A DNA stretch of 62,873 nt, filler included, from Stramenopiles sp. TOSAG23-2 (GCA_900128395.1; 4 parts of 4 records of this genome joined end to end with filler, not necessarily neighbours in it), one strand, 5' to 3'. Shown: positions 2,003 to 47,821, counted from the whole stretch's first letter. Program-made: numbers and translations. Notes: generated from the letters alone by a model not told the origin.

Positions 2003-2052
<50 letters not shown>

Positions 2053-33382: not shown

Positions 33383-34258
33383 AAATATTCGTGTATCATA
33401 CTTCTTCGTATTTTTTTTAGGGAAAAAGATAAGAGATTGAGAGATATTTTTTAAAAAAACAATAAATTACGCACGATGTGTGACCTTTTGCACTTTATTT
33501 TATATTTATAAAATTACATTTTATGACGGCGGCACTGCGCGTAACCAAAAAAAAAAAAAGGATTTCAAAATGTCTTGCTCAGAACACACCAGGAGAATGA
33601 AATCCAGTGGTCGATCGTCCGCCTTAGTAGTCCATCTCCGTAAGGAATTGTCCCACAAGTCTGTCACGCGTCATCCGAGAAGACTCTAATTTATCATCAG
33701 TCCTTAAAAGTTTGTATCTTGACTTTAAGAAAAGCAAGAAGATGATTATACTACAGAAAAGATCCTGATTAAGTATAGTCACTAAAAGTGGCAAAAATTT
33801 CATATATATATAAATACATCAAAATTCAATGGTATGTCCATAGTAAGTTGTGTATTACATGAAGACAGCACTAGCTGAGCTAGCATTTCCCGGCCTCTAT
33901 TCCGCCTGTATAAAATTAGTACTGGTATAGCACCGACATAGAAATAGGTATGTTTTACATTTTTAAGTATAATTATCATATATACTAATATACAAAATAG
34001 TTTTACTTACCTAAAAATAATAAAAACTCAGCAGCAGCGACTTCACATCTCCCCGGATTATCTCTTGGTGGATCTCCAGGATATTCTCCCAGCCCAGATC
34101 TCCCAGATATCATCTGGGATCTCACCATAATTAAAATATATGAATATATATATATATACATACAGATGGAGAGAGTAAAAGAAAGAGATGCATTTATATT
34201 TCCAACTAATTATTAATACGAATTATATAACAAGAATAATAATAGAAACAATAATAAC

Positions 34259-35815
34259 ATGACAACACCACGTTTTAAAATATCGCAAGATAAAGAATAT
34301 ATCTACATCGATATCAATGTGCCATATATACGTATATCAAATTGTGATTTTTATATTGAGGAAACACTTTTTTCATTTTATTGTAAACCATATTTTTTAA
34401 AGTTACATTTGCCAAAACCTATCGTAGATGATGACCGCGCAAAAGCTGTTTATAATTTAGAAGAAGATAATGGTACAATACATGTTACAGCACCAAAAAA
34501 AACTCCTGGTGAACATTTTGAAGATTTACAAATGCTTACAAAATTATTAAGTAAATCATCAACATTAAATATAGTAGATAATGCTAATAAATTAAAAAAT
34601 GTACAAGGTAGAAATTTAATTGAAGTTATATCAAGCTCAAGAAATGAAGAAGAGGAGGAGGAGGATAATAAACATGGTAAAATTGCGGACGATAATAATA
34701 ATAATGATAACAAGAAAAATAGCAATATTGTAAAACAAAATAATGCAGATGCATCTGCTACTGCAGTAACTACGCCATCCATTCTTCTTTTGAATAAAGA
34801 CAATGATGGAAATGCAAATAATAATAATCCAACAATGGAAGAATTAACAAAGTCAATTAATAATATTACATTAAAAACGACAATTACATATGGTTTCAAT
34901 AATAGATTTTCTAATTTTTTCACTGGTTTACGTGATGAACTTGTAGAAATTATTGAATTGACAGAGCCAGATAAAATTCCTATAAAACAACGATCGGTAT
35001 TACGAATTGAAAAGGAAGAAGAAACGTTTGATTTGGAACGATATGCTGGAGATTATGCATATGGAAAAGAAGATCCAATATATAAAGAAGCGATGCGTAT
35101 GAAACCATTTTGGATAGCAAAGAAAAAAAAAGAAATGAAAGAAGATAAAAAGAAATCCATGAAAAACGAAGATAATTCAAATGATCATAATAATAAGAAA
35201 GAAGCGAATGACGACGATGAAAAAGAAAAACAAGAAGAATTTAATGAAACTGAACGAGAAATATTGATTCGTTTACCACGACGTGAATATTTAATAAATG
35301 AAAATGAAGAAACTTATAAATTATTGTGTGGCTTGGCAAGTATTTTATATGGATTTGCATATGATTTTAGATTGGTAAATGGTGAACCAAATGTTGAGTC
35401 AAGTTGGACTATATCTACATTGAGTCCTTTGTTATCATGGCTAGATGACTGTAATAATAATATCGAGCAAATGTTGATATCGTGTATGCGACGTAGTTTA
35501 ATATATCCATATTTACGCTCATATGAATTATCAAAAATGATTGTTAAAGATGTTGTTGCAATATTTCAACTAGGCAAACATACGGTATTACAAACCCTTT
35601 TGAAAATTTATAAAATATATGAAAAAAGCGAAACAAAATATATGATCAATAAATTATTTATTGAAGATTATTGTGTATGGGTACAAACTATTAACGATGA
35701 TATAATTAAAGGTTTTGCAAAAGAAATTCAAAAAGTTGATATAAATAAATCAAAATTAGATTTAGAATTGGAATATATTGAAGAGCAAGTAAATGAACAA
35801 CTTCAACAAAGTTGA
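34259..35815 (+). CDS. SHQ1: H/ACA snoRNP assembly factor SHQ1
   Basis: MTTPRFKISQD, FYCKPYFLKLHLP (CS domain), YGFN, GEPNVESSWTI, RRSLIYPYLR. Confidence 0.93.
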   Translation: MTTPRFKISQDKEYIYIDINVPYIRISNCDFYIEETLFSFYCKPYFLKLHLPKPIVDDDRAKAVYNLEEDNGTIHVTAPKKTPGEHFEDLQMLTKLLSKSSTLNIVDNANKLKNVQGRNLIEVISSSRNEEEEEEDNKHGKIADDNNNNDNKKNSNIVKQNNADASATAVTTPSILLLNKDNDGNANNNNPTMEELTKSINNITLKTTITYGFNNRFSNFFTGLRDELVEIIELTEPDKIPIKQRSVLRIEKEEETFDLERYAGDYAYGKEDPIYKEAMRMKPFWIAKKKKEMKEDKKKSMKNEDNSNDHNNKKEANDDDEKEKQEEFNETEREILIRLPRREYLINENEETYKLLCGLASILYGFAYDFRLVNGEPNVESSWTISTLSPLLSWLDDCNNNIEQMLISCMRRSLIYPYLRSYELSKMIVKDVVAIFQLGKHTVLQTLLKIYKIYEKSETKYMINKLFIEDYCVWVQTINDDIIKGFAKEIQKVDINKSKLDLELEYIEEQVNEQLQQS

Positions 35816-35958
35816 ATATTTTATATTTTTTTACACGAAAGAGCGTATACGAAACGGTTCGTAAAATTAAAAGACCCAAAATATAAAAAAAAATACGCGT
35901 ATATTTTTAATAAAAATAAAAAACCATACTTTTCTTCGCTCCAGATTGGTACAAACGG

Positions 35959-36858
35959 TTAAGTTGTAAATAAAAAGCCCATTATAATTACTTCCAAATC
36001 AATCAAACGTTTGTTTAATTCTTCTAAACAGTCAGTCTCATCAATCGTCCAAATATCTTCACTATTTACATCAGGCATTACAGTTGAACGACAATATGGG
36101 CATTCTTTATTCCGCTCTTTCCATTGTGTATAACATGCTTTACAAAAAGCATGTGAACATTGTAATACAATTTCGATATCATTTTCCATACATATTATAC
36201 ACTCTTTATCATAATCCTCATCCTCTTCTTTTATGTTGTTATTACTACTATTATTAATTATTTCATCTTCTCCACCTCCACTACTTCTTTTTTTATCTAA
36301 TCCAAATGGTATATCTACAACTTCTAGTAGTAAGACAAATATTTTATAAAAAGTTGCTACTGATACAAGAACATCACATGGTTTTCTTCGCAATGATGTA
36401 TCAGTATTTAAGTCGTCTATATTTTTATGTATACCATCATTTTCATTTGATGTGGTAGTAGTAGTAGTAGTAGTAGTAGTAGCATTGGTATTTACCCCGT
36501 CGTCCTCGTTGTTGTTTGTTGTTGTTAATGATTTTTTCTTATTATTATTATTCAACATATTTGTTTTATTATTATTATTGGTACTATTACTATTATTATT
36601 ATTTGAATGATTTGGTACACCACCATTGACTATGACTTGAACTTTTACATTATCGCCAAATCTCCATACTACAGGCAATAATTCTTTTGACACATTATTT
36701 TTCACTAGTAATTTAAATTGCAAAGTATTCAACTTAATAAAACAAGCATATGAATTTGCTTTTTTAACATCCTTTTTTAATTTCTCAAATGACTGCCACT
36801 GTCTATTTGCTTTTTGATTGATAACATTTGTTCTACCACTACCTGGTTGGTTGCCCAT
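35959..36858 (-). CDS. RING-HC E3 ligase, RNF141-like; probable start MGNQ (myristoylation-type)
   Basis: ECIICME...LQCSHAFCKACYTQW...CPYCR followed by an acidic W motif. ATG at 36858; the longer track start runs through a CA microsatellite. Confidence 0.75.
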   Translation of the reverse strand: MGNQPGSGRTNVINQKANRQWQSFEKLKKDVKKANSYACFIKLNTLQFKLLVKNNVSKELLPVVWRFGDNVKVQVIVNGGVPNHSNNNNSNSTNNNNKTNMLNNNNKKKSLTTTNNNEDDGVNTNATTTTTTTTTTSNENDGIHKNIDDLNTDTSLRRKPCDVLVSVATFYKIFVLLLEVVDIPFGLDKKRSSGGGEDEIINNSSNNNIKEEDEDYDKECIICMENDIEIVLQCSHAFCKACYTQWKERNKECPYCRSTVMPDVNSEDIWTIDETDCLEELNKRLIDLEVIIMGFLFTT

Positions 36859-37059
36859 ATCAACAAAACATATATGTGTGTGTGTGTGTATGAATAGATA
36901 TAATCTATATATCAATTATTTACAATGTCTTGTGAAGATAAATCAATTATCTCTCTGTGTTTATAAAATGATCTACATCTCCCTGGGATTAATATATACT
37001 ACTCATATTTTATTTTTAATAATAATAATAAATAAATAAAGTCATGCTGCCTTATTATT

Positions 37060-37410
37060 ACTCGAGTGAAACTTGGCACCAAAACAGGTGCGACATTCCA
37101 ATACTCTCTTTTTAAAGGTTTTTATAGTACAAAAAAATATCATATAAACAAATATTATACAAGTTTAAAATTATTTATACATTTCGGATATATTGATATA
37201 AAAATAGACAATTAGTCTTTTAACCTTCTAAAGTGCGACATGTTCTGTCGAAATCAAACTATATCAGTGGATTTCAGTTTATTAAATGTTTCAAAATATG
37301 AAGGTATAATATTATATCTGTAATTTTTTTGCGGAAATTTGGTTTGTTTAGATATTTTTAGAAATTTTGGTAACCTATAAATTCCTCCAAGTGCCAAGTT
37401 TTTCCCGAGT
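37060..37410. mobile_element. ~350-bp element with imperfect 20-bp terminal inverted repeats (MITE-like)
   Basis: ACTCGAGTGAAACTTGGCAC (37060-37079) versus GTGCCAAGTTTTTCCCGAGT (37391-37410), 17/20 complementary; no clear target-site duplication. Confidence 0.4.
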
Positions 37411-38002
37411 TCTTCGCTGCGCTCATATTTTAAGGTATGGGCTGTAGCAGGGAAGAACGAAGGGAATCGAGTACCTTATTATATTATTATTCTTCCTATA
37501 TCTATCTATAGGTGCATAGTAACTATAATATAGCGGTATTATAAATAAAAATGGATCTTTCTTTGTATAAGGTATATGTATATCATGTATGTTTTATACT
37601 TAATATCATAGTATTATTCCCTTCATTTACAGTATATATATCTATGAGCATTTAGTCATTTAGTCTATTTTACTCCGTTCTCAGTTTACTTGTTCTTTGT
37701 TTAAAAATTATATTAACACCTTAATAACGTGAGGAGTATAAATTCAATAAAAACAACAAAACAACAACAACCGTTATTATTCCGTATCGCTTTAGACACA
37801 AATCAAAAAGAATATTTTATATATATCTACATATAGGATGATACAGAGATAAAGGCAAGAAAGATAATAATATCAAGTTAATATCAACAATACAATCAAT
37901 CAATATATATATATATTAATATCAATAATATATAAAAGTAATAACGGTGAAAAGAAAAGTATATACAAAATAAAACAATTGTCTTGATATTATTTTATAA
38001 AA

Positions 38003-39433
38003 ATGGAGAAATATAATATGCCATTACCAATAACACAAAAATTATTGAAAACAAAAAAATATAACGTTGCTTTAAGGGACAGTACAGAAGGTTCATTTAT
38101 ACCACCGCCAGCGCCTTCAACATTGCGACCACCATTGCCTCCAGCACCACCTGCTCGAAAAATGAAGAAGGAGCAAACCAAAGCAATTGATGATATCAAT
38201 AAAACCAATGATAGTAGCAAAGATAAGAATTCAAGAATAATTCCTTTCGGTCATACAACATTTTCATGGTTGACAACTACTAAAATTGAATCATCAACAA
38301 CAATACCACTTGGCCATACTAGTTATTCCTGGAAATCTACATTAGAAAATAATAATTTACCCCCTGTGGCTAAACTACTTCGTTTACGTGGTAATAAATT
38401 ATTCACTGCTGGTAAATATCACGAAGCTATATCAGAATATGAGAAAGGATTAAAAAAAATACCAACAAAATTCAAAATAGAGAGAAGTATGTTACATTTA
38501 AATTTAGCAGCTGTTTATATACGTTTAAATCGTTTATCAGAAGCAGAAATTAGTGCTACAAATGCAACACGTTTAAATCCATCAAATCCTAAATCATGGT
38601 ATCGTTTAGCAAAAGTTTTAGAATTGACTGGAAAGTTAACAGAAGCAATTGAAACACTTGAAACTGGTATATTAGTGGTACATTCAAAAAAAACGTCACA
38701 AGCTTTATTGGAAGAAAAAAGGAGTATGAATACTGATGGAATGGAAAATAACCATACAAATAATAATTCATCTTTGGCCTTGAAATCAATCGAAAAACAA
38801 GTCAAACCTTTACGATCATTACTGCAAAAATTTCAATTGCGTATGATACATCAAGTACATACAACAAATTCCAAAGCGACTGTATCAAAACCGTTAGATA
38901 CAGATAGTCAAGTAGAAAATTTAAATAGGTTAAATACAAATATTTTACAATCTAACATTAATACGAATGGATCAGGTGCACGCGAACGTCCTAGTGTGGG
39001 TATTCCTATCAAACCATATCAATTAGGAAAAGATTTACCAGCATGGTATAGCAAATATAAAGGTAATGATCCAACAAATTTACCCAAACTTACCAATATT
39101 GCATATATAGCAGATGATAAAATGGAAGATTTAAATGCAGTAGAAAAAGTAAAAGAATTCTTTCAATTAGATAAAGAAACATTTGCACCAACTATGCGCA
39201 GATATGCGTTGATTGTACAAAATAATATTGATTCAAAAGATTTAAAGTTATGTAAAAATCCCTTTGCTAAACACAATCGATCGGTTTTTTGCAAAGCTGC
39301 TGAGCTTCTTGCATGTGATATAATGGCAACTGACAAATTAACAATTGCTAGAAGTGAATTAAATAATATGGATCCGTTAGCAACTTTATTAGTTTTATTT
39401 AGTGTTGTAAGAATGTTGCCAGATGCGATTTAA
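38003..39433 (+). CDS. TPR-repeat protein with N-terminal proline-rich segment
   Basis: GNKLFTAGKYHEAISEY, LHLNLAAVY, NPKSWYRLA (3 TPRs). Confidence 0.75.
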   Translation: MEKYNMPLPITQKLLKTKKYNVALRDSTEGSFIPPPAPSTLRPPLPPAPPARKMKKEQTKAIDDINKTNDSSKDKNSRIIPFGHTTFSWLTTTKIESSTTIPLGHTSYSWKSTLENNNLPPVAKLLRLRGNKLFTAGKYHEAISEYEKGLKKIPTKFKIERSMLHLNLAAVYIRLNRLSEAEISATNATRLNPSNPKSWYRLAKVLELTGKLTEAIETLETGILVVHSKKTSQALLEEKRSMNTDGMENNHTNNNSSLALKSIEKQVKPLRSLLQKFQLRMIHQVHTTNSKATVSKPLDTDSQVENLNRLNTNILQSNINTNGSGARERPSVGIPIKPYQLGKDLPAWYSKYKGNDPTNLPKLTNIAYIADDKMEDLNAVEKVKEFFQLDKETFAPTMRRYALIVQNNIDSKDLKLCKNPFAKHNRSVFCKAAELLACDIMATDKLTIARSELNNMDPLATLLVLFSVVRMLPDAI

Positions 39434-39464
39434 TAAAATCTAAGTGTTATAAATTTTAATAATT

Positions 39465-42400
39465 TTATTTAACACGGGCCGCTAAGCTTTTAATCATCTC
39501 CTTCATCTCTTGGGTGTCTTTTTTTAATGCCATTATTATAGAATCTGTTTTTGGCTTATTTGCACTTTTTTCGGAATATTCTGTAGCAGATAGTTGGCTT
39601 TCAGCTACGGATTCCAAAAATTCTGGTGATAAACATTTTTCAATATCTCTTTTTTCCTCATCAGGTATTTCATCAAGCATATATCTATCCAATTGCTTAT
39701 TAAAGCTTAAAATGCTTTCTCTTTCAGATTTTTCATATACCATCGATACAACGCCTATAAAAATATTCATCAATACCAAGGCGATGATAAAAATAACCAT
39801 GAGGATAAAAATGTAAGATATCCATATAGTACTGTCCATCATATGGTCCATTCCAATGCCAAAATCTCCTAAAGACGCTAGCAAAATATTTAAAAAACTT
39901 GAGTAAAAAAATCTATATTCATTGATTTCGTTTGCATATGCAAAATGAAATCCAATTGCAAAACTAAATAAAACAACTACGATCGTAATGTAAAACGGAA
40001 TGATATCCCGGTGCCCAAATACTTTCAATATTGCCATTACTCGTTCTCCTATACCAAATGGAATTTCCGTCATAATACGTAGTAAATGCACGCTAATGAA
40101 AATAAATAAAACAGCAACCCAATCTTGGCTTTCTGTTGTCAACCAACTAAGCCGATCAAGAGGGATATATGTTTCCTCACCTGTGCTAAGCGCAGAAACA
40201 ATTTTAGGCCGCACCTGATTTTCGAATTGTTCTTTATACCATTGCATTGTCCAATATGCAAAATACATAGCAATCAATACTAATTCATAAATATTCCACC
40301 CGGCAGAAAAATATTTATTTCTTCTTACACTTTGCCACCACATAGAGAAGCACTGATTGTGATACCGATGCTCCATACCAAGTTGGCTGGAACCATGTAG
40401 ATCGTTTTTTCTAGATTTTGTCAATCGTCGCACTAAACAGGATCCGCAACAGCCAACTAGTTGCGCCAATACAAAAAGAAATATTTGAAAAGTTGCAAGG
40501 AAATTACCGATGGAATTCATTAAATGCTTACAACATGTATTTCGTTTTTTTGAATGTTTTTGCAATAGAGTCAATTCTGCAATTTTACTGTTTATTGGAT
40601 TTAACCTATCTACTGTAATGACTTTAGCAACAGACTTTTGCAATTTTGTCTTTGACACCTGTAACTTTTTCTGAATCTTAGTAAAACGCTCAGGAAAAAT
40701 GGTGGCATTCTGATTCCAACATGTATATGGTTTCCAAGAAAACTCTCCAAGTGTTAACCCGTATTTCCTAACTGTATCGTAATCTAAACGATTGTTCATT
40801 TCAGACGATTCATCGGTACTGGCTTTACCAAATTGGACGGAACCTGCTATGCTTCTTAAATTTCCCCATGCCATTTCATTTACTTCAACTAAAGCTCTTA
40901 TAACAAAAATTAACATCAAAATGGTTTGCAGCAAGTTTTGCCCAAACGTTGTTGCCAAGTCTGTAAATCCAAGAACAGTCACATCAATATTAGAATGTGT
41001 ACCTCCCCCAACCCAAAATTCCACCATTAAACGTACTGCAAGAACTCTATCGATATGACTATTGTAAAGTGAAAATTCAAACAACATTAAACGCGTGCCG
41101 TCTTTCGTACTCACAAATTTGTCGTTTTTTAATTCTGCTAAAATTTCAGCTGCTCTTGTGCCGTTGCCTCCCGGCAAGTACACGTTATGCCCACCGCTTA
41201 AATAATAATATTGCCATAAACGATCCCCAACAAATGTTTGTTCATATAACTTCGCTTCTTCGTTTGACTCCAAGGAAGGATCAGTATATTTGTATTTACC
41301 TCCAGGTCCAAACGACTCTTTTTGAACAAGAGATACATCACTTACTGGATCGCTGTGACAACCATCTGTAGGTAGCGATGTTGTATGGACGCCAATACTA
41401 TTTTTACATTGTGTAGGTTTAGCGCGCACTTGTCGTATTCTAATATTTCCGATAATAACAGTGACTTCGTCAATTGCTTTTCTTCCGTTTATATAAACGT
41501 CGTGATCAGGGTATAACCCTTTATAAAAAGGACCGTCCACCCACTGCCAAAATTCATCTATGTTTGCGATGTCGAAAAATATTTTTTCTATATGAGCATC
41601 TTCGGGATCAAATTCTTCATCAACAAATAGTTCTGTTATATGGTTTGCAAATCGCAAATGTTGCGTGTCTCCACCTCCAGTAGAAGTAAAAATGCCAATT
41701 AAAATAAATAATGTTATTGTGATCAATTCTAATGGAACTTTCTGAAAGGTAAATAAACGGTTCAAAGCTTTTTGGTTCCGATATTTTTTCGTACTGCGTG
41801 TCTTCCGCATGGCCTCCATCCCCAATTTCCATTTACTTTTGTCTACATCATTCATTTTTTTTGCTCTTGAAGCGCAATTAGCAAGGTCATATGCACAAAC
41901 ATTCCAGTGCAAATCCTTAGGAAAACACGTTCTAACTGGGTCGCAATCACCCTCTGAGAGAGCTATAATGGCGGGAATGCAACCATTTCGAACTGCATGT
42001 GCTAACGGTGCTATTAGTAATGGATAGGCTTCTGTGTCGTTTGTTTTATTAGCTTCAATCTCATCTAGAATAGGTTTTAACCAAAATTTCGATGAATTAC
42101 TATTAATTATACTACTTGAGCTGATCTCGCCGATCATATGAAACATATCTGATAACGGAGTGTCTACGATGGGGATGTCCTCAAAATCTTTTTCGAGGAC
42201 GGTATATTTATCAATATACTTTATCAGATTTGCCAAGCCGCAATCAATATCTTTATGGTTTAGTTTCATTAATTCAATTCCTTCAAACACGGAAGTATGC
42301 AAATAAAACCAATATTTCCATTTTAAGTTTTTCTTGTGATTAATTATTTCTTTTCCTTTAAATAATTGTGGATAAAGGTGGGTTAATCTTTGCCCCAGTC

Positions 42401-45400
42401 CCCTCGTGGTGCCTGATGTAAATATAGTCTTAAACGTATCTACAAACGTATTAAACACATCGTCATTAATAGCGCAATATAGAGATAAATCAACCTGTTG
42501 CGGGATTTCTTGTTTTCTATTTTGCTTATAGCAATCCAACATTTTTTTTAGGACATTCTCCTTAATTTTTTTTAATCTTTTTGGAGAATTAGCATCTAGC
42601 GCTAGCACCAAAGGCAACTCATTGTCTGATTTCGCATAACAAACGCCCTCGCTGTACGTTTCAATAAATATATTTATTATGCTAGAATAAGAAGTCTTAG
42701 ATCTAAAATAATCTGCTCCAATGGCTAAATGCAACGGCATCTTCAATTCATTATTTACTTCATCAGCCCCTCCATGGCTTTCTTTCTTATCGTATTTTTT
42801 ACTTGCCTTTTTATGAAACGCGATTAAAGTATTTATCATCGCATCTGTCGCATATTTAGAGGAGGCTGCAAGATGTAGTGGTATACAACCTTTGTTGTCT
42901 TTCTTCGCCACAGACATATCTGAGAAAGATACTTTTGATTGCACTGACTCTTTTTTCTTTTCTTTTAAATATTCTTCTTCGATATCCAATAAACATTGTA
43001 CAATATGTGGGTTTTCGTTCGAGCTTGCAGCATGATGTAATGGGGTCATTTCATTATCATCGGATTTCTGTATCTCTTCCTTGTACTCTTTTGCAATCTT
43101 TTTCAAAACTTCCTCTGATGTAACATACTGTGCTGCTAAATGTAAAGTATAAATTCGCTTTTTCTTTTTCTTTTCCTCCTGTTGTTCCACATTACTGTTG
43201 TCATCCCCGCTGCCACCTCCTCCATCCAAACCTCCACTACCATCCTGCCCACCACTATCTGTCTCCGATTGCTGGACATTCTCTTGTTGATTTTCACTTT
43301 CCTCAGTCTCCTTCTGCTCTTTATACAATAATTCAAACACAGCAGGTGTAACTGTATTACTGATTATTGCAAGGTGCAATGGACTATACTGTTGATCATA
43401 TTTTTCATATTTTTCACCAATCCTCAATTTGGTATTAACTGGAATATTATAATCTATAAATGTTTTAATTATATCTAACGATCGGTTATTTTTTTTACCT
43501 TCTAGTAGAAATTTTGCATTAAAATTAGTATCAGAATTGACTATCCAATGAGATGCTGTTAAGCCACTACTATCATAGAATGTTTCAATTTTTTTTATAC
43601 TTTTTTGAAACTCTATATACATTTTAACCAAATCTTGTCCACAGCGAAACGCTGTTGCATAATGAAGAGGTGACATTTTATTACTGTCTTCAAGCAGCTT
43701 AATCATTTGCTCTTCGTCATCACTATTGTTTGGACTCGTCATTGGAGTCCTGTCGTCTGGATCTTCTATCTTGTCCAAAGGGATTTCATTTTCATTGGAA
43801 CCTTGTTTCAGTGGCATCTCTTCTTCTTCCAATTCACGATCCCCAGGCTTTTGAAACCGTTTAATTACATATTCTACAATATCCTTATTGGCATCTGCTT
43901 CTGCTAAATAATGCAATATGTTTCTATTGTTTGATCCTTTTCTTCTAATCAACGTTTCGTCTGCATCAAGAATTTTTTTAATTAAGTCCAAATCTGCCCC
44001 ATATTTACTTGCCCAATGAATTGGGTGATCCTGTGCAGGGACATCGCTGTTTTCCTTCGGCAGGGGGCATAACTCGTCGAAATACTTTTTCAAGCCATTG
44101 TTTTGTAATTCTCTCTCTTCGAACTCTATTTTAACCGCATCCCACAAGTTTGCTTTCATAAGTAACTCTAAAAGATTGATGTCAGTCCTGTTTGTTTTTT
44201 TCATTTTTTCCCACATTATATTTGCGGTTTTCTTGTTTTTTTTTTCTGCAGCAATTTCAAGGGGTAAACGACCAAGTCCATCTTTTTCAAACAGCATATC
44301 TTCCATTATATTAAACATTTCTTTCATCGCTTTTTCGGAATATATACCTTCCGCAACTAGATAATGTAAAACTGTACCTTTGATTGAGATTTTCATATCG
44401 TTGATGGATAAGTTGTTATGTCCCTCAATATCAATATTCCCACCTTTTTTAGTCGCCATTGTTATATCACCTGTATCCTCTTCGTGGATCAAAAGATTAG
44501 TTTTTGTAGGTCTTAAGCAAATATTTTTACTAGCATTGGGCTTCCAATTATTTTTCTTGCAATAACTTGAGTACGGAACAAAAAGTAAGCGATCGTCTTC
44601 GTCAATTTGACCAGAATTTGAATAGACTTTTTTAATTTTGTTCCATGAAGCAATGGCGCTACTATTACTCCCATTTGTAGGACTTCGGTTTTTTCTCTTT
44701 TTCGACTTTGGACTAGCTTTTTTTGTAATAATTGAAAAAATACCGCTTCTGCTTGTGTTTACACTTTTTTTTCTATTTTTGGTGTTGTTTTTATTCCCAG
44801 ACCATAATCTCATTGTACTGTAGTCGAGCTTGCTCGACGCTCTCGAAAGAGAGCGTCGTTTTCGATTAAATTCAATAACTTCCTCTACTCGACTTTGATG
44901 TTTCATAGCATCAATAACAGTGCGATATTCATCTGTTGGGGGGCCAAAATTCATTTTCGTTTCTCCATAATTAACGTTGTATGTGCCGTTTTTTATTGTC
45001 ATAGCCGGAAATAATCCTTCCTTAAATGAACAATCTGTTTTAAACACATTCATTGTTTGTCTCCATTTACCATTTATACTCATATGGAAATTAAAAGTTT
45101 TCTTTGGTCCATCGATATCAACTGCAATGCCAACAATGTCATTATCATTCCATTTGGCCTCTGGTGGCAATATGACTTTACCAGAGTAACCATTATGCCA
45201 TGCTCTTAATCTTTCGCCATCTGCAGCCCACGAATGTGTACAATCACCAACACCATATTCAGTGTGGCCTACAAATGGTTTAAACGTTGCATCTGCCCAT
45301 CCCAGTTGCGGGCATGGCCCATGCTTAACAACAGTACATTCATAGTATATCTTACCATGTTTAAATAAATATCCTCTTGCACCCCACGTTGAATATGCTT

Positions 45401-47129
45401 TGCAATGAAGTTCGTTTCCATTCGTACAGCTACTTTCATTATGATCACCTCGAATTAGCAATAATTTTGCATCTGTATACCAATCTTGCATATATTTATA
45501 AGCTGAAGAATCCTTAAGCGTACCAGTTAAAATTTGATAAACAGTACCTTTTTGTCGATATATCTGAGTTAAAAAAAATCGAACTTTTTTTCTAGTTTCA
45601 AAATCGCGAGAAATATTCCTGATACAGTTTGGATTATTTTGTACTATCAGCTTCACAATATCTACTAAATCACTAATATGACCATCCAATAGATCCTTTG
45701 TTGCACACTTTTCATACATATCCATACACAGAAATAGACATTTTATATCGACCAACACTTTTTCCTCTTGTTGTAGCATTTTTTTAGCTTCCTCAAATTG
45801 AGAACATTGAATTGCTAAATAAAGAGTTCTTTTATCGTCCAATTTGTTCCATAATATACGTATTAACCTTTCTTTATGGTTCATTCTAGCTGCAATTTGT
45901 ACGGGGAATATGTTGCAATCATCTTTAACAGAACACATTTTTGGATATTCATTTACTATGATATCAAATAATTCCATGTCAACGACGGGTTTATCTAACA
46001 ATGTATGTAAAATTGTTCCTCGGGACAAATATTTTATTAAATCTTTTCTCTTGAATATAGCATTTAAAGTGGTATGTTTTATCGGATCTTTGAGCCAATA
46101 TTTATCGTTTTTTTCGTCAACACTGCTAATAACATATTTTTGTCCAATTGTGACTTCTTTATTTCTTTTTGAAGTCACCGATACTTCCAATCCAATTTTA
46201 AGTTTAAAATCGTCTGGAAACCACGGATTACCTAATTTTTTATTAATATTATTTGGTTGTACTGAAGATAGCGACTTACGTAAAATAGTCTTAGCTAAAG
46301 TTGACGATATGTTGCTTTGAAAAGCTACATGTAAAGGCAGTTCGTTTGCATTGTTTCGGTGCAACAAACAATCGCTTGCAACCTCATCCAAATTTGTCAG
46401 TAACACATTACATTTATCCTGAAGCAAATTTATTTCCCAAAAGTAATCCTCGTCTTGTGGCTTTCCTTTTTTTAAATATGGGATAAAATCATCGTTCTCC
46501 ATCCTGATTTTTATTGCACTGTTATGTTGAACTGATTGAAACGCTACTTGTCCATTGCGGGCATAGAGTTCAAATATTTCAAAGTCACCTAATGTGTCGC
46601 TATCCCATTTTAGTTTTTCTGGCGTGGAAGCTTGTAGATATTTACCATGGGATCCCTTTAATCCAACTTGATTTTTCTTCTGTTTTTCCAACTTCAGCAT
46701 AACAGGATCTACCTTTTGCCCCGTTTTACTCAGTCCTCCGTTATCCATTAAATCGATTTTTTCTTGTATTAATTGTTTTATTTTAGATGTTTTCCCTTTC
46801 TTTAACGGTGTGTGACCATCTTCGCCTGCTTTCAATAGGGATGGGCCAATGTTTGGGTGAGCTAGTAATAATTCTACAATACTCTGTCTACCCTCCCAAC
46901 TACACATCAATAATGGGCATCGATTTTTGTACCCACCTTTATTTATATCAATTGTAGGTTGTGCAAGCAATAATTTACAAACTTCATAATGTCCACTTGC
47001 ACTTGCCCTTGCCAAGGGGGTATTATAATTCGAATTTGGCGCCTTCTCATTAATATCTTCTCCGCATTCAATTAATGTTTTGCAATCTTCAACATTCCCT
47101 TCATATGCCGCTTTACATAATGGAGATTG
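39465..47129 (-). CDS. Giant ankyrin / fascin-like / SPRY / ankyrin / polycystin-2 (TRPP)-type cation channel, 5' partial (>2550 aa)
   Basis: Frame continues upstream of the track ORF (QSPLCKAAYEGNVEDCKTLI). Many TPLH-type ankyrin repeats; SPRY (GKIYYE..PQLGWA..GVGD..SWAADG); TOP domain (FWQWVDGPF, GNIRIRQVR, EFSLYN); pore and S6 (LGDF, LMNIFIGVV). Confidence 0.85.
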   Translation of the reverse strand, partial: QSPLCKAAYEGNVEDCKTLIECGEDINEKAPNSNYNTPLARASASGHYEVCKLLLAQPTIDINKGGYKNRCPLLMCSWEGRQSIVELLLAHPNIGPSLLKAGEDGHTPLKKGKTSKIKQLIQEKIDLMDNGGLSKTGQKVDPVMLKLEKQKKNQVGLKGSHGKYLQASTPEKLKWDSDTLGDFEIFELYARNGQVAFQSVQHNSAIKIRMENDDFIPYLKKGKPQDEDYFWEINLLQDKCNVLLTNLDEVASDCLLHRNNANELPLHVAFQSNISSTLAKTILRKSLSSVQPNNINKKLGNPWFPDDFKLKIGLEVSVTSKRNKEVTIGQKYVISSVDEKNDKYWLKDPIKHTTLNAIFKRKDLIKYLSRGTILHTLLDKPVVDMELFDIIVNEYPKMCSVKDDCNIFPVQIAARMNHKERLIRILWNKLDDKRTLYLAIQCSQFEEAKKMLQQEEKVLVDIKCLFLCMDMYEKCATKDLLDGHISDLVDIVKLIVQNNPNCIRNISRDFETRKKVRFFLTQIYRQKGTVYQILTGTLKDSSAYKYMQDWYTDAKLLLIRGDHNESSCTNGNELHCKAYSTWGARGYLFKHGKIYYECTVVKHGPCPQLGWADATFKPFVGHTEYGVGDCTHSWAADGERLRAWHNGYSGKVILPPEAKWNDNDIVGIAVDIDGPKKTFNFHMSINGKWRQTMNVFKTDCSFKEGLFPAMTIKNGTYNVNYGETKMNFGPPTDEYRTVIDAMKHQSRVEEVIEFNRKRRSLSRASSKLDYSTMRLWSGNKNNTKNRKKSVNTSRSGIFSIITKKASPKSKKRKNRSPTNGSNSSAIASWNKIKKVYSNSGQIDEDDRLLFVPYSSYCKKNNWKPNASKNICLRPTKTNLLIHEEDTGDITMATKKGGNIDIEGHNNLSINDMKISIKGTVLHYLVAEGIYSEKAMKEMFNIMEDMLFEKDGLGRLPLEIAAEKKNKKTANIMWEKMKKTNRTDINLLELLMKANLWDAVKIEFEERELQNNGLKKYFDELCPLPKENSDVPAQDHPIHWASKYGADLDLIKKILDADETLIRRKGSNNRNILHYLAEADANKDIVEYVIKRFQKPGDRELEEEEMPLKQGSNENEIPLDKIEDPDDRTPMTSPNNSDDEEQMIKLLEDSNKMSPLHYATAFRCGQDLVKMYIEFQKSIKKIETFYDSSGLTASHWIVNSDTNFNAKFLLEGKKNNRSLDIIKTFIDYNIPVNTKLRIGEKYEKYDQQYSPLHLAIISNTVTPAVFELLYKEQKETEESENQQENVQQSETDSGGQDGSGGLDGGGGSGDDNSNVEQQEEKKKKKRIYTLHLAAQYVTSEEVLKKIAKEYKEEIQKSDDNEMTPLHHAASSNENPHIVQCLLDIEEEYLKEKKKESVQSKVSFSDMSVAKKDNKGCIPLHLAASSKYATDAMINTLIAFHKKASKKYDKKESHGGADEVNNELKMPLHLAIGADYFRSKTSYSSIINIFIETYSEGVCYAKSDNELPLVLALDANSPKRLKKIKENVLKKMLDCYKQNRKQEIPQQVDLSLYCAINDDVFNTFVDTFKTIFTSGTTRGLGQRLTHLYPQLFKGKEIINHKKNLKWKYWFYLHTSVFEGIELMKLNHKDIDCGLANLIKYIDKYTVLEKDFEDIPIVDTPLSDMFHMIGEISSSSIINSNSSKFWLKPILDEIEANKTNDTEAYPLLIAPLAHAVRNGCIPAIIALSEGDCDPVRTCFPKDLHWNVCAYDLANCASRAKKMNDVDKSKWKLGMEAMRKTRSTKKYRNQKALNRLFTFQKVPLELITITLFILIGIFTSTGGGDTQHLRFANHITELFVDEEFDPEDAHIEKIFFDIANIDEFWQWVDGPFYKGLYPDHDVYINGRKAIDEVTVIIGNIRIRQVRAKPTQCKNSIGVHTTSLPTDGCHSDPVSDVSLVQKESFGPGGKYKYTDPSLESNEEAKLYEQTFVGDRLWQYYYLSGGHNVYLPGGNGTRAAEILAELKNDKFVSTKDGTRLMLFEFSLYNSHIDRVLAVRLMVEFWVGGGTHSNIDVTVLGFTDLATTFGQNLLQTILMLIFVIRALVEVNEMAWGNLRSIAGSVQFGKASTDESSEMNNRLDYDTVRKYGLTLGEFSWKPYTCWNQNATIFPERFTKIQKKLQVSKTKLQKSVAKVITVDRLNPINSKIAELTLLQKHSKKRNTCCKHLMNSIGNFLATFQIFLFVLAQLVGCCGSCLVRRLTKSRKNDLHGSSQLGMEHRYHNQCFSMWWQSVRRNKYFSAGWNIYELVLIAMYFAYWTMQWYKEQFENQVRPKIVSALSTGEETYIPLDRLSWLTTESQDWVAVLFIFISVHLLRIMTEIPFGIGERVMAILKVFGHRDIIPFYITIVVVLFSFAIGFHFAYANEINEYRFFYSSFLNILLASLGDFGIGMDHMMDSTIWISYIFILMVIFIIALVLMNIFIGVVSMVYEKSERESILSFNKQLDRYMLDEIPDEEKRDIEKCLSPEFLESVAESQLSATEYSEKSANKPKTDSIIMALKKDTQEMKEMIKSLAARVK

Positions 47130-47184
47130 GTTGAAGTAAATGAAATGGCATGGGGAAATTTAAGAAGCATAGCAGGTTCCGTCC

Positions 47185-47284
47185 NNNNNNNNNNNNNNNN
47201 NNNNNNNNNNNNNNNNNNNNNNNNNNNNTTAATTAATTAANNNNNNNNNNNNNNNNNNNNNNNNNNNNNNNNNNNNNNNNNNNN
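47185..47284. other. Artificial contig linker
   Basis: N-run, TTAATTAATTAA, N-run. Confidence 0.97.
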
Positions 47285-47821
47285 AACTATAGGTATTCTA
47301 ATTAAGGCATTTAAATATGATTTTAATATGAAGATATCAATTGTAAAATCGTAAAATCTGATTATTTTCAAAACTACATACGAGAATATGGTTATTCTAA
47401 TTAAGGCATTTAAATATGAAATCTGAATAAATCTTAGCATAGGAATAGCATAATAATAGAGTTGTAGAGTAGGGTTCGAGCGGTTATGTGTATGTCCCGA
47501 AATATAATCTGAATTTATCCAATAATATAGATGAAATAGATTAAGATAGATATGCAAATAAAATAATTTATAATATATATGCAAATGCAAATGGGGACAA
47601 ACATAACGATAGTTCATTATCATCCATAGATTTTTTGTTTTTTAATATATATGCAAATGCAAATGGGGACAAACATAACGATAGTTCATTATCATCCATA
47701 GTTTTTTTGTTTTTTTTTTCTCTATACAAAAACTACTATATCCAAGAAACGATTTGTAAATAGCAAAGATAATTATTTTTAATAATAGAATTGATTGTAA
47801 TATAATAATAATAATAGATCC

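What the first reader, a model, noticed from the sequence alone, without database searches (positions are those of the whole stretch)
39465..47129. Giant polycystin-2-type channel fused to ankyrin arrays, a SPRY domain and a fascin-like repeat
Established: TRPP/PKD2 channels have the TOP domain and lack N-terminal ankyrin repeats, which characterise TRPA/N/V/C; SPRY domains occur in ryanodine receptors and RNF123-type ligases. Seen: a single uninterrupted frame with ankyrin repeats, a fascin-like beta-trefoil segment (QVGLKGSHGKYLQA...FEL..RNGQVAFQS), SPRY, more ankyrin repeats, S1-TOP-S2, a long Cys/basic insert before S3, then the pore. Inference: a cytoskeleton-tethered mechanosensor or a ligand-gated effector channel with integrated sensor domains.
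Basis: partly seen in the sequence, partly recalled or inferred. Interest (0 to 1): 0.7.

Follow-up and report, generated by a model that had tools for sequence, protein, structure and literature searches.

The report
Giant ankyrin-SPRY polycystin-type channel gene
This is the larger, 3' part of a real gene from a marine flagellate that joins a polycystin-2-type ion channel to a very large intracellular arm of ankyrin repeats and a SPRY domain, a build not seen in animal polycystins.

Summary
The frame and its domain order are real. Pfam finds Ank, SPRY, Polycystin_dom and PKD_channel above threshold, and FRG1 just below it. All 17 sequence matches in the PDB are PKD2L1, PKD2 or PKD1L3. The folded channel part matches PKD2 and PKD2L1 structures.

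The window holds only part of the gene. It is a chain of contigs joined by artificial N/TTAATTAATTAA spacers. The gene's contig stops at 47184, and its last 55 bases are an inverted copy of 40835-40889. Independent DNA contigs and two other assemblies read on upstream instead.

In related contig L001 the gene continues through two GT-AG introns into about 1,180 more codons of coiled coil and ankyrin repeats. That gives about 3,796 aa. A 3,300-aa single-ORF paralogue (L002) is collinear across the second intron.

The protein belongs to a well-supported subfamily that shares a SPRY-Ank-TRPP core and a conserved S2-S3 insert of about 185 aa. In a tree of 112 channel domains, all 26 ankyrin-bearing channels lie on one side. 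So ankyrin-TRPP fusions form a wider group in environmental eukaryote data, and seven literature searches found no description of it. Function is inferred: a tetrameric cation channel controlled or anchored through its cytosolic arm.

The parts
39465..47133 (-). Retained 3' part of the last exon (exon 3) of the channel gene. It covers residues 59-2613 in P0009 numbering plus the stop codon at 39465-39467.
   Evidence: Open frame. 2542 of 2554 residues identical to P0009. Contigs of DNA runs X5 and X7 follow the window up to 47133.
47134..47184 (.). Chimeric contig end. The full inverted copy is 47130-47184, the exact reverse complement of 40835-40889. It is not part of the gene.
   Evidence: X5 and X7 contigs diverge from the window at 47133.
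47185..47284 (.). Artificial contig-join spacer: 44 N, TTAATTAATTAA (stops in all six frames), 44 N.
   Evidence: The same spacer occurs at 15668-15767 and 31430-31529.
46737..47129 (-). Ankyrin repeats (P0009 residues 60-190). This is the tail of the long N-terminal ankyrin array, most of which lies upstream of the contig break.
   Evidence: Pfam Ank_2 at P0009 63-150. Upstream exons in L001 are ankyrin-rich.
46407..46694 (-). Short beta domain of FRG1/fascin (beta-trefoil) type (residues about 205-300).
   Evidence: Pfam FRG1 24.7-25.2 bits, below the gathering score of 27; the same in paralogue L002 at 24.1 bits. Fascin-1 7zau_A Z 7.3, rmsd 2.8, 84 residues aligned; FGF23 complex chain Z 7.2. 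Family profile versus PDB: fascin and FRG1 at E 0.7-0.8. The model here has pLDDT of only about 50-68 and shows 7 strands.
45525..46382 (-). Ankyrin-like helical repeats (residues 309-594) holding a small KOW/SH3-like beta barrel (residues 366-426, window 46029-46211).
   Evidence: This is the best-predicted part of the N-terminal model, with pLDDT mostly 70-90 over model residues 310-500. Ankyrin-repeat chains score Z 8-9.6. NusG KOW scores Z 7.4 (rmsd 2.2, 56 aligned) and Hpy99I N-domain Z 7.8 (rmsd 1.7, 54 aligned).
44907..45392 (-). SPRY domain (residues about 639-800).
   Evidence: Pfam SPRY 32.1 bits against a cutoff of 26.3. Weak PDB sequence hits to ryanodine-receptor SPRY domains (E 0.01-0.06) and DDX1 SPRY (E 0.016). 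Conserved in P0003 (below the Pfam cutoff), P0005-P0008 and L002. Poorly modelled.
44427..44906 (-). Basic, Ser-rich low-complexity linker (residues 801-960). It holds GC-rich palindromes at 44821-44858.
   Evidence: Translation, sequence, palindrome search. Loose ends of other contigs lie at 44820/44821 and 44853/44854.
42627..44414 (-). Central ankyrin arrays (residues about 965-1560), interrupted by an acidic, Gly-rich stretch at about 1330-1380.
   Evidence: Pfam Ank_2, Ank, Ank_3 and Ank_4, best stretch at ORF residues 1291-1398. Nine xLHxA-type motifs between residues 978 and 1523. Homologous in all family members.
41757..42626 (-). Conserved pre-S1 cytosolic linker region (residues 1561-1850). 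Its fold was not determined.
   Evidence: It lies in the most strongly conserved N-terminal block across the family; phmmer domains covering query 1370-1817 have i-E values of 1e-95 to 2.4e-59.
41670..41738 (-). Transmembrane helix S1.
   Evidence: Hydropathy peak at residues 1857-1875. Helix at model residues 21-40. Aligned to the S1 region of PKD2L1.
40947..41669 (-). Extracellular/luminal TOP (polycystin) domain between S1 and S2, with a family-invariant Cys pair at C1967 and C1983.
   Evidence: Pfam Polycystin_dom E 1.1e-16. Aligned to PKD2L1, with both Cys matching Cys in the target. Cys columns invariant in 8 of 8 family members. Fold match.
40869..40946 (-). Transmembrane helix S2.
   Evidence: Hydropathy. 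Helix at model residues 281-323.
40314..40868 (-). S2-S3 insert of about 185 residues, specific to the family. It has conserved motifs, a variable basic part, and a hydrophobic helix (residues 2262-2290, window 40437-40523) flanked by CC and CCxxC clusters.
   Evidence: There is a gap in the alignment to PKD2L1 between query residues 273 and 492. Conserved blocks appear in 8 family members. Hydropathy 2.09, as high as a transmembrane helix. Helix at model residues 417-448 with pLDDT about 60-78; the rest of the insert is below 50.
39732..40313 (-). S3-S6 with the pore. The filter SLGDFG is at 39858-39875 and the S6 motif LMNIFIG at 39753-39773.
   Evidence: Pfam PKD_channel 34.1 bits and Ion_trans 30.5 bits. 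LGDF and the S6 LN align to PKD2L1. Conserved across the family. Coordinates.
39468..39731 (-). Cytosolic C-terminal tail (residues 2526-2613), helical, with no EF-hand detected.
   Evidence: Helices at model residues 713-776, with low confidence over 709-753. No EF-hand family at E <= 0.01.

Best explanation
Window 39465-47133 (minus strand) is the 3' two-thirds of a real nuclear gene of an intron-poor, roughly 30% GC marine flagellate. The gene encodes one subunit, about 3,800 aa, of a polycystin-2 (TRPP)-type cation channel.

Shown:
- The C-terminal 790 residues have the TRPP build: S1, a TOP domain with its Cys pair, S2, S3-S6, an LGD-type filter and the S6 Asn.
- About 3,000 cytosolic residues precede the channel: a coiled coil, a long ankyrin array, an FRG1/fascin-like beta domain, ankyrin-like repeats with a KOW/SH3-like barrel, a SPRY domain, two more ankyrin arrays and a conserved pre-S1 linker.
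- A family-specific insert of about 185 residues sits in the cytosolic S2-S3 loop. It contains a hydrophobic, Cys-flanked helix.

Inferred: four subunits form a non-selective, Ca2+-permeable pore, as in PKD2 and PKD2L1. The cytosolic ankyrin-SPRY arm binds intracellular partners (cytoskeleton or regulatory proteins). Through the pre-S1 linker and the S2-S3 insert it anchors the channel and couples partner binding or displacement to gating. The part N-terminal of the conserved core differs between family members (ankyrin arrays with an FRG1-like domain here and in L002; a discoidin domain, plus C1 in one, in others) and would set partner or location specificity.
For: Gene reality:
- The same frame appears in three assemblies: the window, P0001/L001 and P0009.
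- X5 DNA contigs have depth in all 30 bins.
- Contigs from two metatranscriptome runs of one study (X15, X16) lie collinearly on 20 and 14 of 30 bins. The longer pieces listed in table 8 are collinear with at most one gap.

TRPP identity:
- Pfam Polycystin_dom scores 61.4 bits and PKD_channel 34.1 bits.
- All 17 PDB sequence hits are PKD2L1, PKD2 or PKD1L3, and the LGDF filter, S6 LN and both TOP Cys align.
- The AF2 model has pLDDT 70.6 and pTM 0.65.
- Every row listed by Foldseek up to rank 50 is a PKD2, PKD2L1 or polycystin-1/PKD1L3 chain, with E down to 3e-20 and TMt 0.72-0.83 for the PKD2 and PKD2L1 chains.

Cytosolic arm: Pfam hits and fold hits.

Gene extension:
- L001 has GTACGT...TAG and GTAAGT...TAG introns.
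- The conceptual coding sequence has no internal stop.
- blastx segments abut at L002 residue 717 on both sides of intron 2.
- A single blastp segment joins conceptual residues 510-3735 to L002 residues 106-3241 at 39.65% identity.

Conservation implies function:
- Homology to seven metagenomic relatives runs through the cytosolic region. It starts at query residue 191 for the longest relative and at 957 for the shortest.
- The S2-S3 insert motifs, the S4-S5 linker and the filter are conserved at 36-48% overall identity.
- The family forms a clade with SH-aLRT 100.
Against: - No functional data exist; conduction, selectivity, tetramer formation and membrane location are all inferred from homology.
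- The RNA evidence is patchy metatranscriptome contigs. They do not span domain borders or the introns, and the tool warns that DNA can be present in RNA libraries.
- The upstream exons and splicing rest on homology and splice motifs only, seen in another assembly (L001) and not in the window.
- The N-terminal model is poor, with mean pLDDT 50.8. The beta-trefoil and KOW-like assignments rest on Z scores of 7-8, which the tool says can arise from common arrangements.
- The FRG1 match is below Pfam's threshold.
- If the hydrophobic helix in the S2-S3 loop crossed the membrane once, it would invert S3-S6. Its disposition is unknown.
- One search lists two joints. One DNA contig skips 39916->44683 and one RNA contig skips 42972->44228. 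The shorter sides are only 21 and 20 letters and the ends are not GT..AG. The tool says joints with a side under 30 letters often come from repeats or other organisms.
Confidence: 0.7

Rival explanations
1. NOMPC-like tethered mechanosensor. The long ankyrin arrays act as a compliant tether, or gating spring, between the pore and the cytoskeleton (microtubules or actin, perhaps via the fascin/FRG1-like domain). Membrane or ciliary displacement then opens the channel.
For: - The ankyrin arrays are long. Pfam Ank_2 finds 7 stretches in L001 exon 2, 1 in exon 1 and 2 in exon 3.
- The assembly encodes ciliary proteins (CFAP299, CFAP97) on other contigs.
- That NOMPC has 29 ankyrin repeats acting as a spring is recalled, not tested here.
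- That fascin and FRG1 bind actin is also recalled.
Against: - The arrays are interrupted by other domains and by low-complexity linkers, unlike one continuous superhelix.
- No cytoskeleton-binding motif was tested.
- The trefoil assignment is weak.
- There is no localisation or physiology.
Confidence: 0.25
2. The cytosolic arm is mainly a localisation and assembly scaffold. It would anchor the channel at a cortical or ciliary site and recruit partners, while gating is intrinsic to the TRPP core (voltage, Ca2+ or TOP-domain ligands).
For: - Ankyrin and SPRY are generic protein-interaction modules.
- Family members differ in the part N-terminal of the conserved core: discoidin, C1, or ankyrin with an FRG1-like domain.
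- The TOP domain and pore are conserved like those of PKD2.
Against: The pre-S1 linker and the S2-S3 insert, which lie where cytosolic domains could touch the gate, are among the best-conserved parts. This hints at coupling and not anchoring alone. Nothing run here separates the two readings.
Confidence: 0.3
3. Intracellular Ca2+-release channel analogous to ryanodine receptors. In this reading a giant cytosolic assembly with a SPRY domain sits on an endomembrane store and is opened by cytosolic ligands or partner proteins.
For: - The closest PDB sequences to the SPRY domain are ryanodine-receptor SPRY domains, but only weakly (E 0.01-0.06).
- The very large cytosolic mass per subunit resembles RyR and IP3R.
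- Oomycete PKDRR proteins show that PKD pores can combine with RyR-type domains (PMC7399828: abstract and section 2.2 read).
Against: - No RyR, RIH or MIR family was found by Pfam at E <= 0.01.
- Representatives with RyR domains (P0067, P0133) fall on the other side of the tree.
- PKDRR B is reported at the cell surface (PMC7399828 abstract).
- Membrane location cannot be tested here.
Confidence: 0.12
4. Assembly or gene-model artefact. Here two genes, an ankyrin/SPRY protein and a PKD2-like channel, are wrongly read as one, or the contig is chimeric.
For: - The contig end is chimeric and the window is a chain of contigs.
- RNA contigs do not bridge the domain borders.
Against: - One frame of 7.6 kb has no stop.
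- The same protein is found in three assemblies.
- Independent DNA contigs tile the stretch.
- Seven relatives at 36-48% identity keep the same order in single ORFs, and L002 does so over 3,300 codons.
Confidence: 0.03

Closest known systems
Polycystin-2 / PKD2L1 (TRPP, group 2 TRP channels of animals)
   Same: S1-TOP-S2...S3-S6 topology, Pfam Polycystin_dom and PKD_channel, an aligned LGD-type filter, the S6 Asn, the TOP Cys pair, and the best sequence and fold matches in the PDB.
   Different: - It has about 3,000 cytosolic residues N-terminal of S1, with ankyrin arrays, SPRY and other domains.
- It has an S2-S3 insert of about 185 residues.
- Pfam detects no EF-hand.
- Identity to PKD2 and PKD2L1 is only 12-16% in structural alignment.
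NOMPC/TRPN, TRPA and TRPV (group 1 TRP channels with N-terminal ankyrin repeat domains)
   Same: A cytosolic N-terminal ankyrin array precedes a 6-TM TRP-type pore. TRPA1, TRPV3 and TRPV6 ankyrin domains appear among the fold matches of the N-terminal model at Z 7.1-8.0.
   Different: - The pore, the TOP domain and all PDB sequence hits are TRPP, not group 1.
- The ankyrin arrays are interrupted by SPRY, beta domains and linkers.
- A TRP box or TRP helix was not looked for.
Oomycete PKDRR proteins (PKD channel plus ryanodine-receptor R domains; PMC7399828)
   Same: A protist PKD2-type pore is fused to a domain type otherwise known from ryanodine receptors. Both are lineage-specific elaborations of TRPP.
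   Different: - PKDRR carries two R (RyR) domains; the paper separates its two subfamilies by how close the second R domain lies to the C-terminus (section 2.2).
- This protein has no RyR domain by Pfam; it has SPRY and ankyrin N-terminally.
- Representatives with RyR domains lie on the other side of the tree.
Other ankyrin-bearing PKD channels in environmental protein data (unnamed representatives P0020, P0040, P0105, P0122, P0144 and others)
   Same: Ankyrin repeats lie N-terminal of Polycystin_dom and PKD_channel. They sit on the same side of the channel-domain tree, and P0105 and P0122 also carry SPRY.
   Different: - They carry other modules: LRR, SLOG/LSDAT, NADAR and a weak PQQ-like match.
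- Judging from Pfam coordinates, their S2-S3 inserts are shorter or absent.
- Channel-domain identity is only 23-30%.

Membership tests
TRPP (polycystin-2-like) channels | Six-TM channel core matching the PKD_channel model above its curated cutoff | tested here: met
   PF08016 scores 34.1 bits against a cutoff of 22.4, and Ion_trans 30.5 against 25. The same holds in 7 of 8 proteins scanned; P0008 is cut off before S5.
TRPP (polycystin-2-like) channels | Large TOP/polycystin domain between S1 and S2 | tested here: met
   PF20519 scores 61.4 bits against 23.6. It aligns to PKD2L1 residues 33-273. The fold match covers it, with about 690 alignment columns.
TRPP (polycystin-2-like) channels | Closest solved relatives are PKD2, PKD2L1 or PKD1-like chains and not other TRP families | tested here: met
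   17 of 17 PDB sequence hits. All rows listed by Foldseek up to rank 50 are polycystin chains.
TRPP (polycystin-2-like) channels | LGD-type selectivity filter and S6 gate Asn | tested here: met
   SLGDFG aligns to LGDFD of PKD2L1, and LMNIF to LLNMF. Relatives have S(L/F)GDFG. That these residues form the filter and gate is recalled from PKD2 and PKD2L1 structures.
TRPP (polycystin-2-like) channels | Placement inside TRPP in a phylogeny with named TRP subfamilies | not testable with these tools
   No named TRP reference sequences were available. The tree holds only unnamed representatives, and its root is not inferred.
TRPP (polycystin-2-like) channels | Cation conduction as a tetramer | not testable with these tools
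   This needs expression and electrophysiology. No complex prediction was run.
TRPN/NOMPC-type ankyrin TRP channels | Group 1 TRP pore with a continuous ankyrin array | tested here: not met
   The pore is TRPP. The arrays are interrupted by other domains. The protein may work like NOMPC but is not a member.
Oomycete PKDRR | PKD channel plus RyR (R) domains | tested here: not met
   PF02026 was not found at E <= 0.01. Representatives P0067 and P0133 do carry it and lie elsewhere in the tree.
FRG1/fascin beta-trefoil domains | Match to the FRG1 or fascin model above threshold, and a 12-strand trefoil fold | tested here: inconclusive
   FRG1 scores 24.7, 25.2 and 24.1 bits, below the gathering score of 27, in the window protein, P0009 and L002. 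Fascin-1 scores Z 7.3. The family profile hits fascin and FRG1 at E 0.7-0.8. The model shows only 7 strands at pLDDT about 50-68.
SPRY domain | Match to PF00622 above its cutoff | tested here: met
   32.1 bits against 26.3. Above the cutoff in P0005-P0008 and L002 at 38.7-41 bits; P0003 scores 23.7 bits, below it.

The most novel reading that the evidence does not exclude
The gene represents a previously undescribed clade of eukaryotic TRP channels. They combine a group 2 (TRPP) pore and TOP domain with group 1-style ankyrin arrays and a ryanodine-receptor-like SPRY domain. In this reading, marine flagellates independently built a NOMPC-like tethered mechanosensor, or a RyR-like giant cytosolic gating assembly, on a polycystin pore. 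The palmitoylatable hydrophobic helix of the S2-S3 insert would serve as a new coupling element between arm and gate.
Probability: 0.2. Interest if true: 0.8.

Novelty: new variant of a known kind. Interest (0 to 1): 0.55.

Why it matters
TRP channels are usually divided into two groups. Group 1 (TRPA, TRPC, TRPN, TRPV) typically has cytosolic ankyrin repeats. Group 2 (TRPP, TRPML) has a large S1-S2 loop domain and none. This gene, and the 26 ankyrin-bearing channels that group with it, show that outside animals the two feature sets occur in one protein. They come with interchangeable sensor-like modules: SPRY, LRR, SLOG, NADAR and discoidin.

If the arm gates the pore, these proteins would be natural experiments in how a TRPP pore can be driven from the cytosol. 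That question bears on how PKD2 itself is activated, which is still debated. They may also be sensory channels of abundant marine flagellates: 20 run records from 13 studies hold the stretch or part of it, and 14 hold half of its words or more.

There is also a practical lesson. The window is a chain of contigs with chimeric ends, so its gene models and neighbourhoods need care.

Tried and rejected
- Whole-genome search: no genome is held for this window.
- Word-based homologue search with ORF residues 90-800 found only the protein's own cluster. phmmer in the script box showed that the seven relatives do share this region, so one search was a sensitivity miss and not evidence of uniqueness.
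- PDB sequence search with P0009 residues 190-660 gave nothing below E 0.3.
- ESM Atlas search with the cytosolic 1,631 residues gave a best score of 0.76, to a bacterial ankyrin cluster, which is uninformative.
- Viral contigs: the alignment query was not usable, and the single-protein query matched nothing. This is no support for a giant-virus origin; it finds close relatives only.
- The shorter-length search found only fragments on contigs of 4.3 kb or less. No complete channel-only form of this subfamily was seen, but absence is not shown.
- The AF2 model of residues 60-900 was poor, with mean pLDDT 50.8.
- The two skipping joints (39916->44683 in a DNA contig, 42972->44228 in an RNA contig) have shorter sides of 21 and 20 letters and ends that are not GT..AG. 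I read them as repeat or paralogue cross-matches, not as splicing or deletion.
- I first took the 33-35-nt stretch at 44820-44854, shared with other contigs, for the conserved end of the SPRY domain. Mapping showed it lies in the basic linker and is palindromic, so I dropped it as evidence for paralogues.
- The repeat finder, run for inverted repeats of at least 14 bases, reported none in 39300-47184. The palindrome arms are 10 bp, below that limit.
- Literature: searches listed no paper that describes a TRPP/PKD2 channel with N-terminal ankyrin repeats or SPRY. Term searches inside PMC12749960, 10.64898/2026.06.15.732245, PMC4494053 and PMC11085791 found no such statement. No supplements were opened. 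Subscription papers and domain-architecture databases were not searchable, so 'not in print' is only as strong as these searches.
- No complex prediction was run.
Full report
**What is in the window**

The minus strand between 39465 and about 47160 carries one open frame. The ORF lister gives 2,516 codons from a nominal TTG. Pfam finds the following on it, at ORF numbering:
- ankyrin families (Ank_2, E 2e-30);
- FRG1 at residues 113-173 (24.7 bits, below the gathering score of 27);
- SPRY at 555-684 (32.1 bits against 26.3);
- Polycystin_dom at 1816-2013 (61.4 bits);
- PKD_channel at 2225-2428 (34.1 bits);
- Ion_trans.

**The window is a chain of contigs and the gene is cut**

N runs lie at 15668-15711 and 15724-15767, at 31430-31473 and 31486-31529, and at 47185-47228 and 47241-47284. 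Each pair encloses TTAATTAATTAA, a linker with stops in all six frames. The two inner pieces are 15,662 and 15,655 bases long, as if contigs had been sorted by size. Only 31530-47184 is therefore the gene's real neighbourhood. On that contig lie a CCDC93-like gene, an SHQ1-like gene, a RING-finger gene and a TPR gene that ends 31 bases from the channel's stop.

The last 55 bases of the contig, 47130-47184, are the exact reverse complement of 40835-40889 inside the same gene. This is a chimeric contig end. Contigs of two DNA runs, X5 and X7, follow the window only up to 47133. X5's loose end there, translated by hand on the minus strand, reads ...KSEPLKRKYG. That is the sequence preceding NQSPLCK in the database proteins P0001 and P0009.

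**The frame is not a misassembly**

- P0009 comes from a 14,162-base contig of another source. It matches the window protein at 2542 of 2554 aligned residues and has the same C-terminus.
- P0001 comes from the 11,800-base contig L001. It differs at 20 of 2550 compared positions. Its odd last residues lie at that contig's very end.
- X5 contigs give depth in all 30 bins of 39300-47184, and X7 in 29.
- Contigs from two marine metatranscriptome runs of one study (X15, X16) lie on 20 and 14 of the 30 bins. The longer pieces are collinear with at most one gap, for example 39462-40445, 42550-42922, 43512-43915, 44236-44594 and 44963-45940. This shows presence in RNA libraries. The tool warns that it is not proof of transcription, and none of these pieces bridges a domain border.
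- One search also lists two skipping joints: 39916->44683 in one DNA contig and 42972->44228 in one RNA contig. Their shorter sides are only 21 and 20 letters and their ends are not GT..AG, so I treat them as cross-matches.

**The gene is larger than the finding**

A scan of metagenome contigs with the N-terminal 601 residues returned two loci: L001, which holds the same gene, and L002, a relative at 43% identity.

In L001, two ankyrin-rich ORFs lie upstream on the same strand, at 206-1033 and 1106-3775. The sequence shows a GTAAGT donor right after a complete codon at 3730. It shows an acceptor ...CATAG ending at 3819. From 3820 an open, ankyrin-like reading in the frame of the channel ORF continues for 48 codons before the first ATG. 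A second candidate intron, GTACGT...TAATAG, spans 999-1118.

Joining 206-998, 1119-3730 and 3820 onward in a script gives 11,376 bases with no internal stop. With P0009's C-terminus the protein would have about 3,796 residues.

L002 provides the test. It is a single ORF of 3,300 codons with ankyrin arrays, an FRG1-like stretch (24.1 bits), SPRY, Polycystin_dom and PKD_channel.
- blastx aligns L001 1853-3733 (frame 2) to L002 residues 106-717.
- blastx aligns L001 3820-4299 (frame 1) to residues 717-885, so the two segments abut exactly at the proposed intron.
- blastp of the conceptual protein gives one segment, residues 510-3735 against L002 106-3241, at 39.65% identity.

I conclude that the window holds the 3' 7.66 kb of the last exon of a three-exon gene. 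The spliced RNA itself was not seen.

**The channel part is TRPP-like**

- phmmer of the last 777 residues against PDB sequences hits only PKD2L1 (E 6.6e-14), PKD2 (E 2.7e-12 and weaker) and PKD1L3, 17 of 17 hits.
- The printed alignment pairs S1 and the TOP domain with PKD2L1 residues 33-273, including both TOP cysteines. It pairs S3-S6 with residues 314-507. SLGDFG lies opposite LGDFD, and LMNIF opposite LLNMF.
- An AF2 model built on a 16-row alignment has mean pLDDT 70.6 and pTM 0.65.
- In Foldseek against the PDB, every row listed up to rank 50 is a PKD2, PKD2L1 or polycystin-1/PKD1L3 chain. E values go down to 3e-20, and TM-scores normalised to the target are 0.72-0.83 for the PKD2 and PKD2L1 chains.
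- Placement among named TRP subfamilies could not be tested, because no named references were available.

**The S2-S3 insert**

Between S2 and S3 the alignment to PKD2L1 has a gap of about 190 query residues. In eight family members this insert contains the following conserved blocks:
- E(I/V)(D/N)E(M/I)AWxNL...GD directly after S2;
- a (F/Y)xWxP..CC hairpin;
- a variable basic stretch;
- a hydrophobic helix;
- LGxxxxY...W...N.YF..WN.YE leading into S3.

The helix, at P0009 residues 2262-2290, is as hydrophobic as the transmembrane helices (Kyte-Doolittle 2.09). In this protein it is flanked by CC and CCxxC. It is modelled as a helix at pLDDT about 60-78, while most of the rest of the insert is below 50. 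Whether it lies in or on the membrane is unknown. A single crossing would invert S3-S6, so an interfacial or re-entrant position, possibly lipid-anchored, is my inference.

**The cytosolic arm**

The model of P0009 residues 60-900 is poor overall, with mean pLDDT 50.8; confidence is mostly 70-90 over model residues 310-500 only. A wide structural search gave these matches:
- Model residues 250-535: ankyrin-repeat chains, Z 8-9.6.
- Model residues 307-367, an embedded barrel: NusG KOW (Z 7.4, rmsd 2.2, 56 aligned) and Hpy99I N-domain (Z 7.8, rmsd 1.7, 54 aligned).
- Model residues 121-216: fascin-1 (Z 7.3, rmsd 2.8, 84 aligned) and FGF23 (Z 7.2).

The tool cautions that Z below 8 can be a common arrangement. 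Two further lines point the same way. FRG1 matches below threshold in three family members. A family profile against the PDB has fascin and FRG1 as its only non-polycystin hits, at E 0.7-0.8. Together these make a fascin/FRG1-type beta domain probable but not established.

The SPRY domain passes Pfam's cutoff. Its nearest PDB sequences are ryanodine-receptor SPRY domains and DDX1, but weakly (E 0.01-0.06).

**A conserved family**

The large protein database holds seven relatives of comparable length, at 36-48% identity over the channel. All come from metagenome sources. Pfam gives SPRY-Ank-Polycystin_dom-PKD_channel in P0005, P0006 and P0007, and in P0003 with SPRY below the cutoff. P0008 is cut off before the pore. 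P0002 and P0004 are shorter and have no SPRY. P0003, P0005 and P0007 carry an F5/8-type C (discoidin) domain at the N-terminus, and P0003 also has a C1 domain.

phmmer shows that homology to P0009 runs along the cytosolic region, starting at these query residues:

| Relative | Homology starts at |
|---|---|
| P0008 | 191 |
| P0005 | 209 |
| P0007 | 293 |
| P0006, P0003 | 424 |
| P0002 | 718 |
| P0004 | 957 |

The scaffold is therefore conserved and the part N-terminal of it varies. The shorter-length search found only fragments on contigs of 4.3 kb or less.

**A wider group of ankyrin-TRPP channels**

An exhaustive phmmer search of 1.84 billion representatives gave 713 hits at E <= 1e-3. Of these, 166 were at E <= 1e-10 and 10 at E <= 1e-30; those 10 are 191-643 residues long and look like fragments.

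I scanned 109 proteins with Pfam:
- One search covered 22 proteins: 21 of the 23 hits of at least 1,200 aa, plus P0041. Sixteen carry ankyrin families N-terminal of the channel; one of these, P0033, is 0.1 bit under the cutoff. Other modules found with ankyrin are LRR, SPRY (P0105, and three copies in P0122), SLOG/LSDAT (P0071) and NADAR (P0144, 4,200 aa). Without ankyrin, P0097 has WD40 and P0136 has EF-hand plus WW.
- One search covered 24 proteins. One carries ankyrin, and two carry RyR domains like the oomycete PKDRR proteins.
- One search covered 63 proteins at E <= 1e-8. None carries ankyrin at that threshold. P0160, a fragment of the L002 protein, has ankyrin only in the precomputed list.

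I then built a tree of 112 complete channel domains. P0059 was left out because it holds two channels. The tree used 510 columns and IQ-TREE's quick search with LG+G4.
- The nine family rows form a clade with SH-aLRT 100.
- All 26 ankyrin-bearing rows lie on one 34-row side of a weakly supported split (SH-aLRT 80).
- 21 of those 26 lie within a 26-row set supported at 96.
- The other 78 rows have short N-termini; the RyR-domain rows are among them.
- The root is not inferred. The tool flags two long-branch joins and five rows of odd composition elsewhere in the tree.

**Organism**

Contigs in the window encode ordinary eukaryotic cell and cilium proteins: PH and PX domain proteins, CFAP97, CFAP299/DUF4464, CCDC93, SHQ1 and ribophorin II. 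CFAP299 matches axonemal chains in the PDB at E 9e-104. GC content is about 30%. Introns are few and short. Standard stop codons are in use.

Twenty run records from 13 studies hold the stretch or part of it, and 14 hold half of its words or more. The named ones are marine or seawater metagenomes and metatranscriptomes. A marine flagellate is the most that can be said.

**How it most likely works**

The shown facts are the TRPP core with an intact filter and gate motifs, the conserved cytosolic scaffold, and the conserved insert. From them and from what is known of PKD2 and PKD2L1, I infer a tetrameric, non-selective, Ca2+-permeable channel.

The pre-S1 linker and the S2-S3 insert are the best-conserved cytosolic parts and lie next to the gate. 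I therefore favour coupling of the ankyrin-SPRY arm to gating, with the variable N-terminal part selecting the partner or site.

The rivals cannot be separated here. They are a NOMPC-like tether, a pure localisation scaffold, and an intracellular release channel.

**Literature**

Seven searches listed no paper describing a TRPP channel with N-terminal ankyrin repeats or SPRY.
- The oomycete PKDRR paper (PMC7399828; abstract and section 2.2 read) is the nearest precedent for a PKD pore fused to a domain type known from ryanodine receptors.
- A choanoflagellate TRP preprint (10.64898/2026.06.15.732245; passages only) describes low-copy TRP families with stable architectures and one or two TRPP members per species.
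- An abstract seen only in a search listing (PMC12796746) states that ion channels with ankyrin repeats are all TRP channels with N-terminal ankyrin repeat domains.
- No supplements were opened.

**Verdict**

This is a new variant of a known kind: a member of an apparently undescribed ankyrin-bearing branch of polycystin-type channels.

Noticed in passing
window 15668-15767, 31430-31529, 47185-47284 (also 19 N at 15253-15271): The window is an artificial concatenation of contigs joined by 44 N + TTAATTAATTAA + 44 N. The inner pieces are 15,662 and 15,655 bases long, as if sorted by length. Genes on either side of a spacer are not genomic neighbours.
   Followed up: yes
window 47130-47184 versus 40835-40889: The contig ends in a 55-base exact inverted copy of an internal part of the same gene, a chimeric contig end. 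P0001's deviant C-terminus also lies at the very end of its contig, L001. The other contig ends in the window were not checked.
   Followed up: partly
window 44821-44858 (minus strand): GC-rich palindromes sit inside the coding region of the basic linker: 10-bp arms CGACGCTCTC/GAGAGCGTCG with a 4-base loop, overlapping a second one, GTCGAGC..GCTCGAC. Contigs from elsewhere in runs X5, X7, X15 and X16 share about 33 bases here and then diverge on both sides. This could be a short dispersed palindromic element or an assembly-graph artefact. It remains unexplained.
   Followed up: partly
window about 47590-47720 (minus-strand reading, next contig): A direct tandem duplication of about 70 bases (ctatggatgataatgaactatcgttatgtttgtccccatttgcatttgcatatatatta, twice) lies in an AT-rich intergenic stretch.
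   Followed up: no
window 55615-60264 (minus strand): A 1,549-aa ORF is made almost entirely of teneurin-type EGF repeats (PF25024 E 4e-182, PF23106 in 12 stretches). It lies in a stretch of 42-44% GC against about 30% elsewhere.
   Followed up: no
window 14336-15007, 24307-28170, 28568-30883: A small TIR-domain protein, a 1,287-aa Kelch plus ephrin-receptor-like repeat protein, and a PH-START-EDR2_C protein lie on other contigs of the chain.
   Followed up: no
proteins P0071, P0144, P0122, P0097, P0014 (representative search hits): Other unnamed PKD-type channels carry striking N-terminal modules. P0071 has SLOG/LSDAT, the TRPM-type domain, plus Ank. P0144 has NADAR plus Ank and is 4,200 aa. 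P0122 has three SPRY domains plus LRR plus Ank and is 3,224 aa. P0097 and P0014 have WD40 propellers.
   Followed up: partly
window 45844-46320 (plus strand): A 158-codon ORF lies antisense inside the channel gene; the same is listed in L001 at 4950-5426 on the minus strand. It is probably a chance open frame in AT-rich coding DNA.
   Followed up: no
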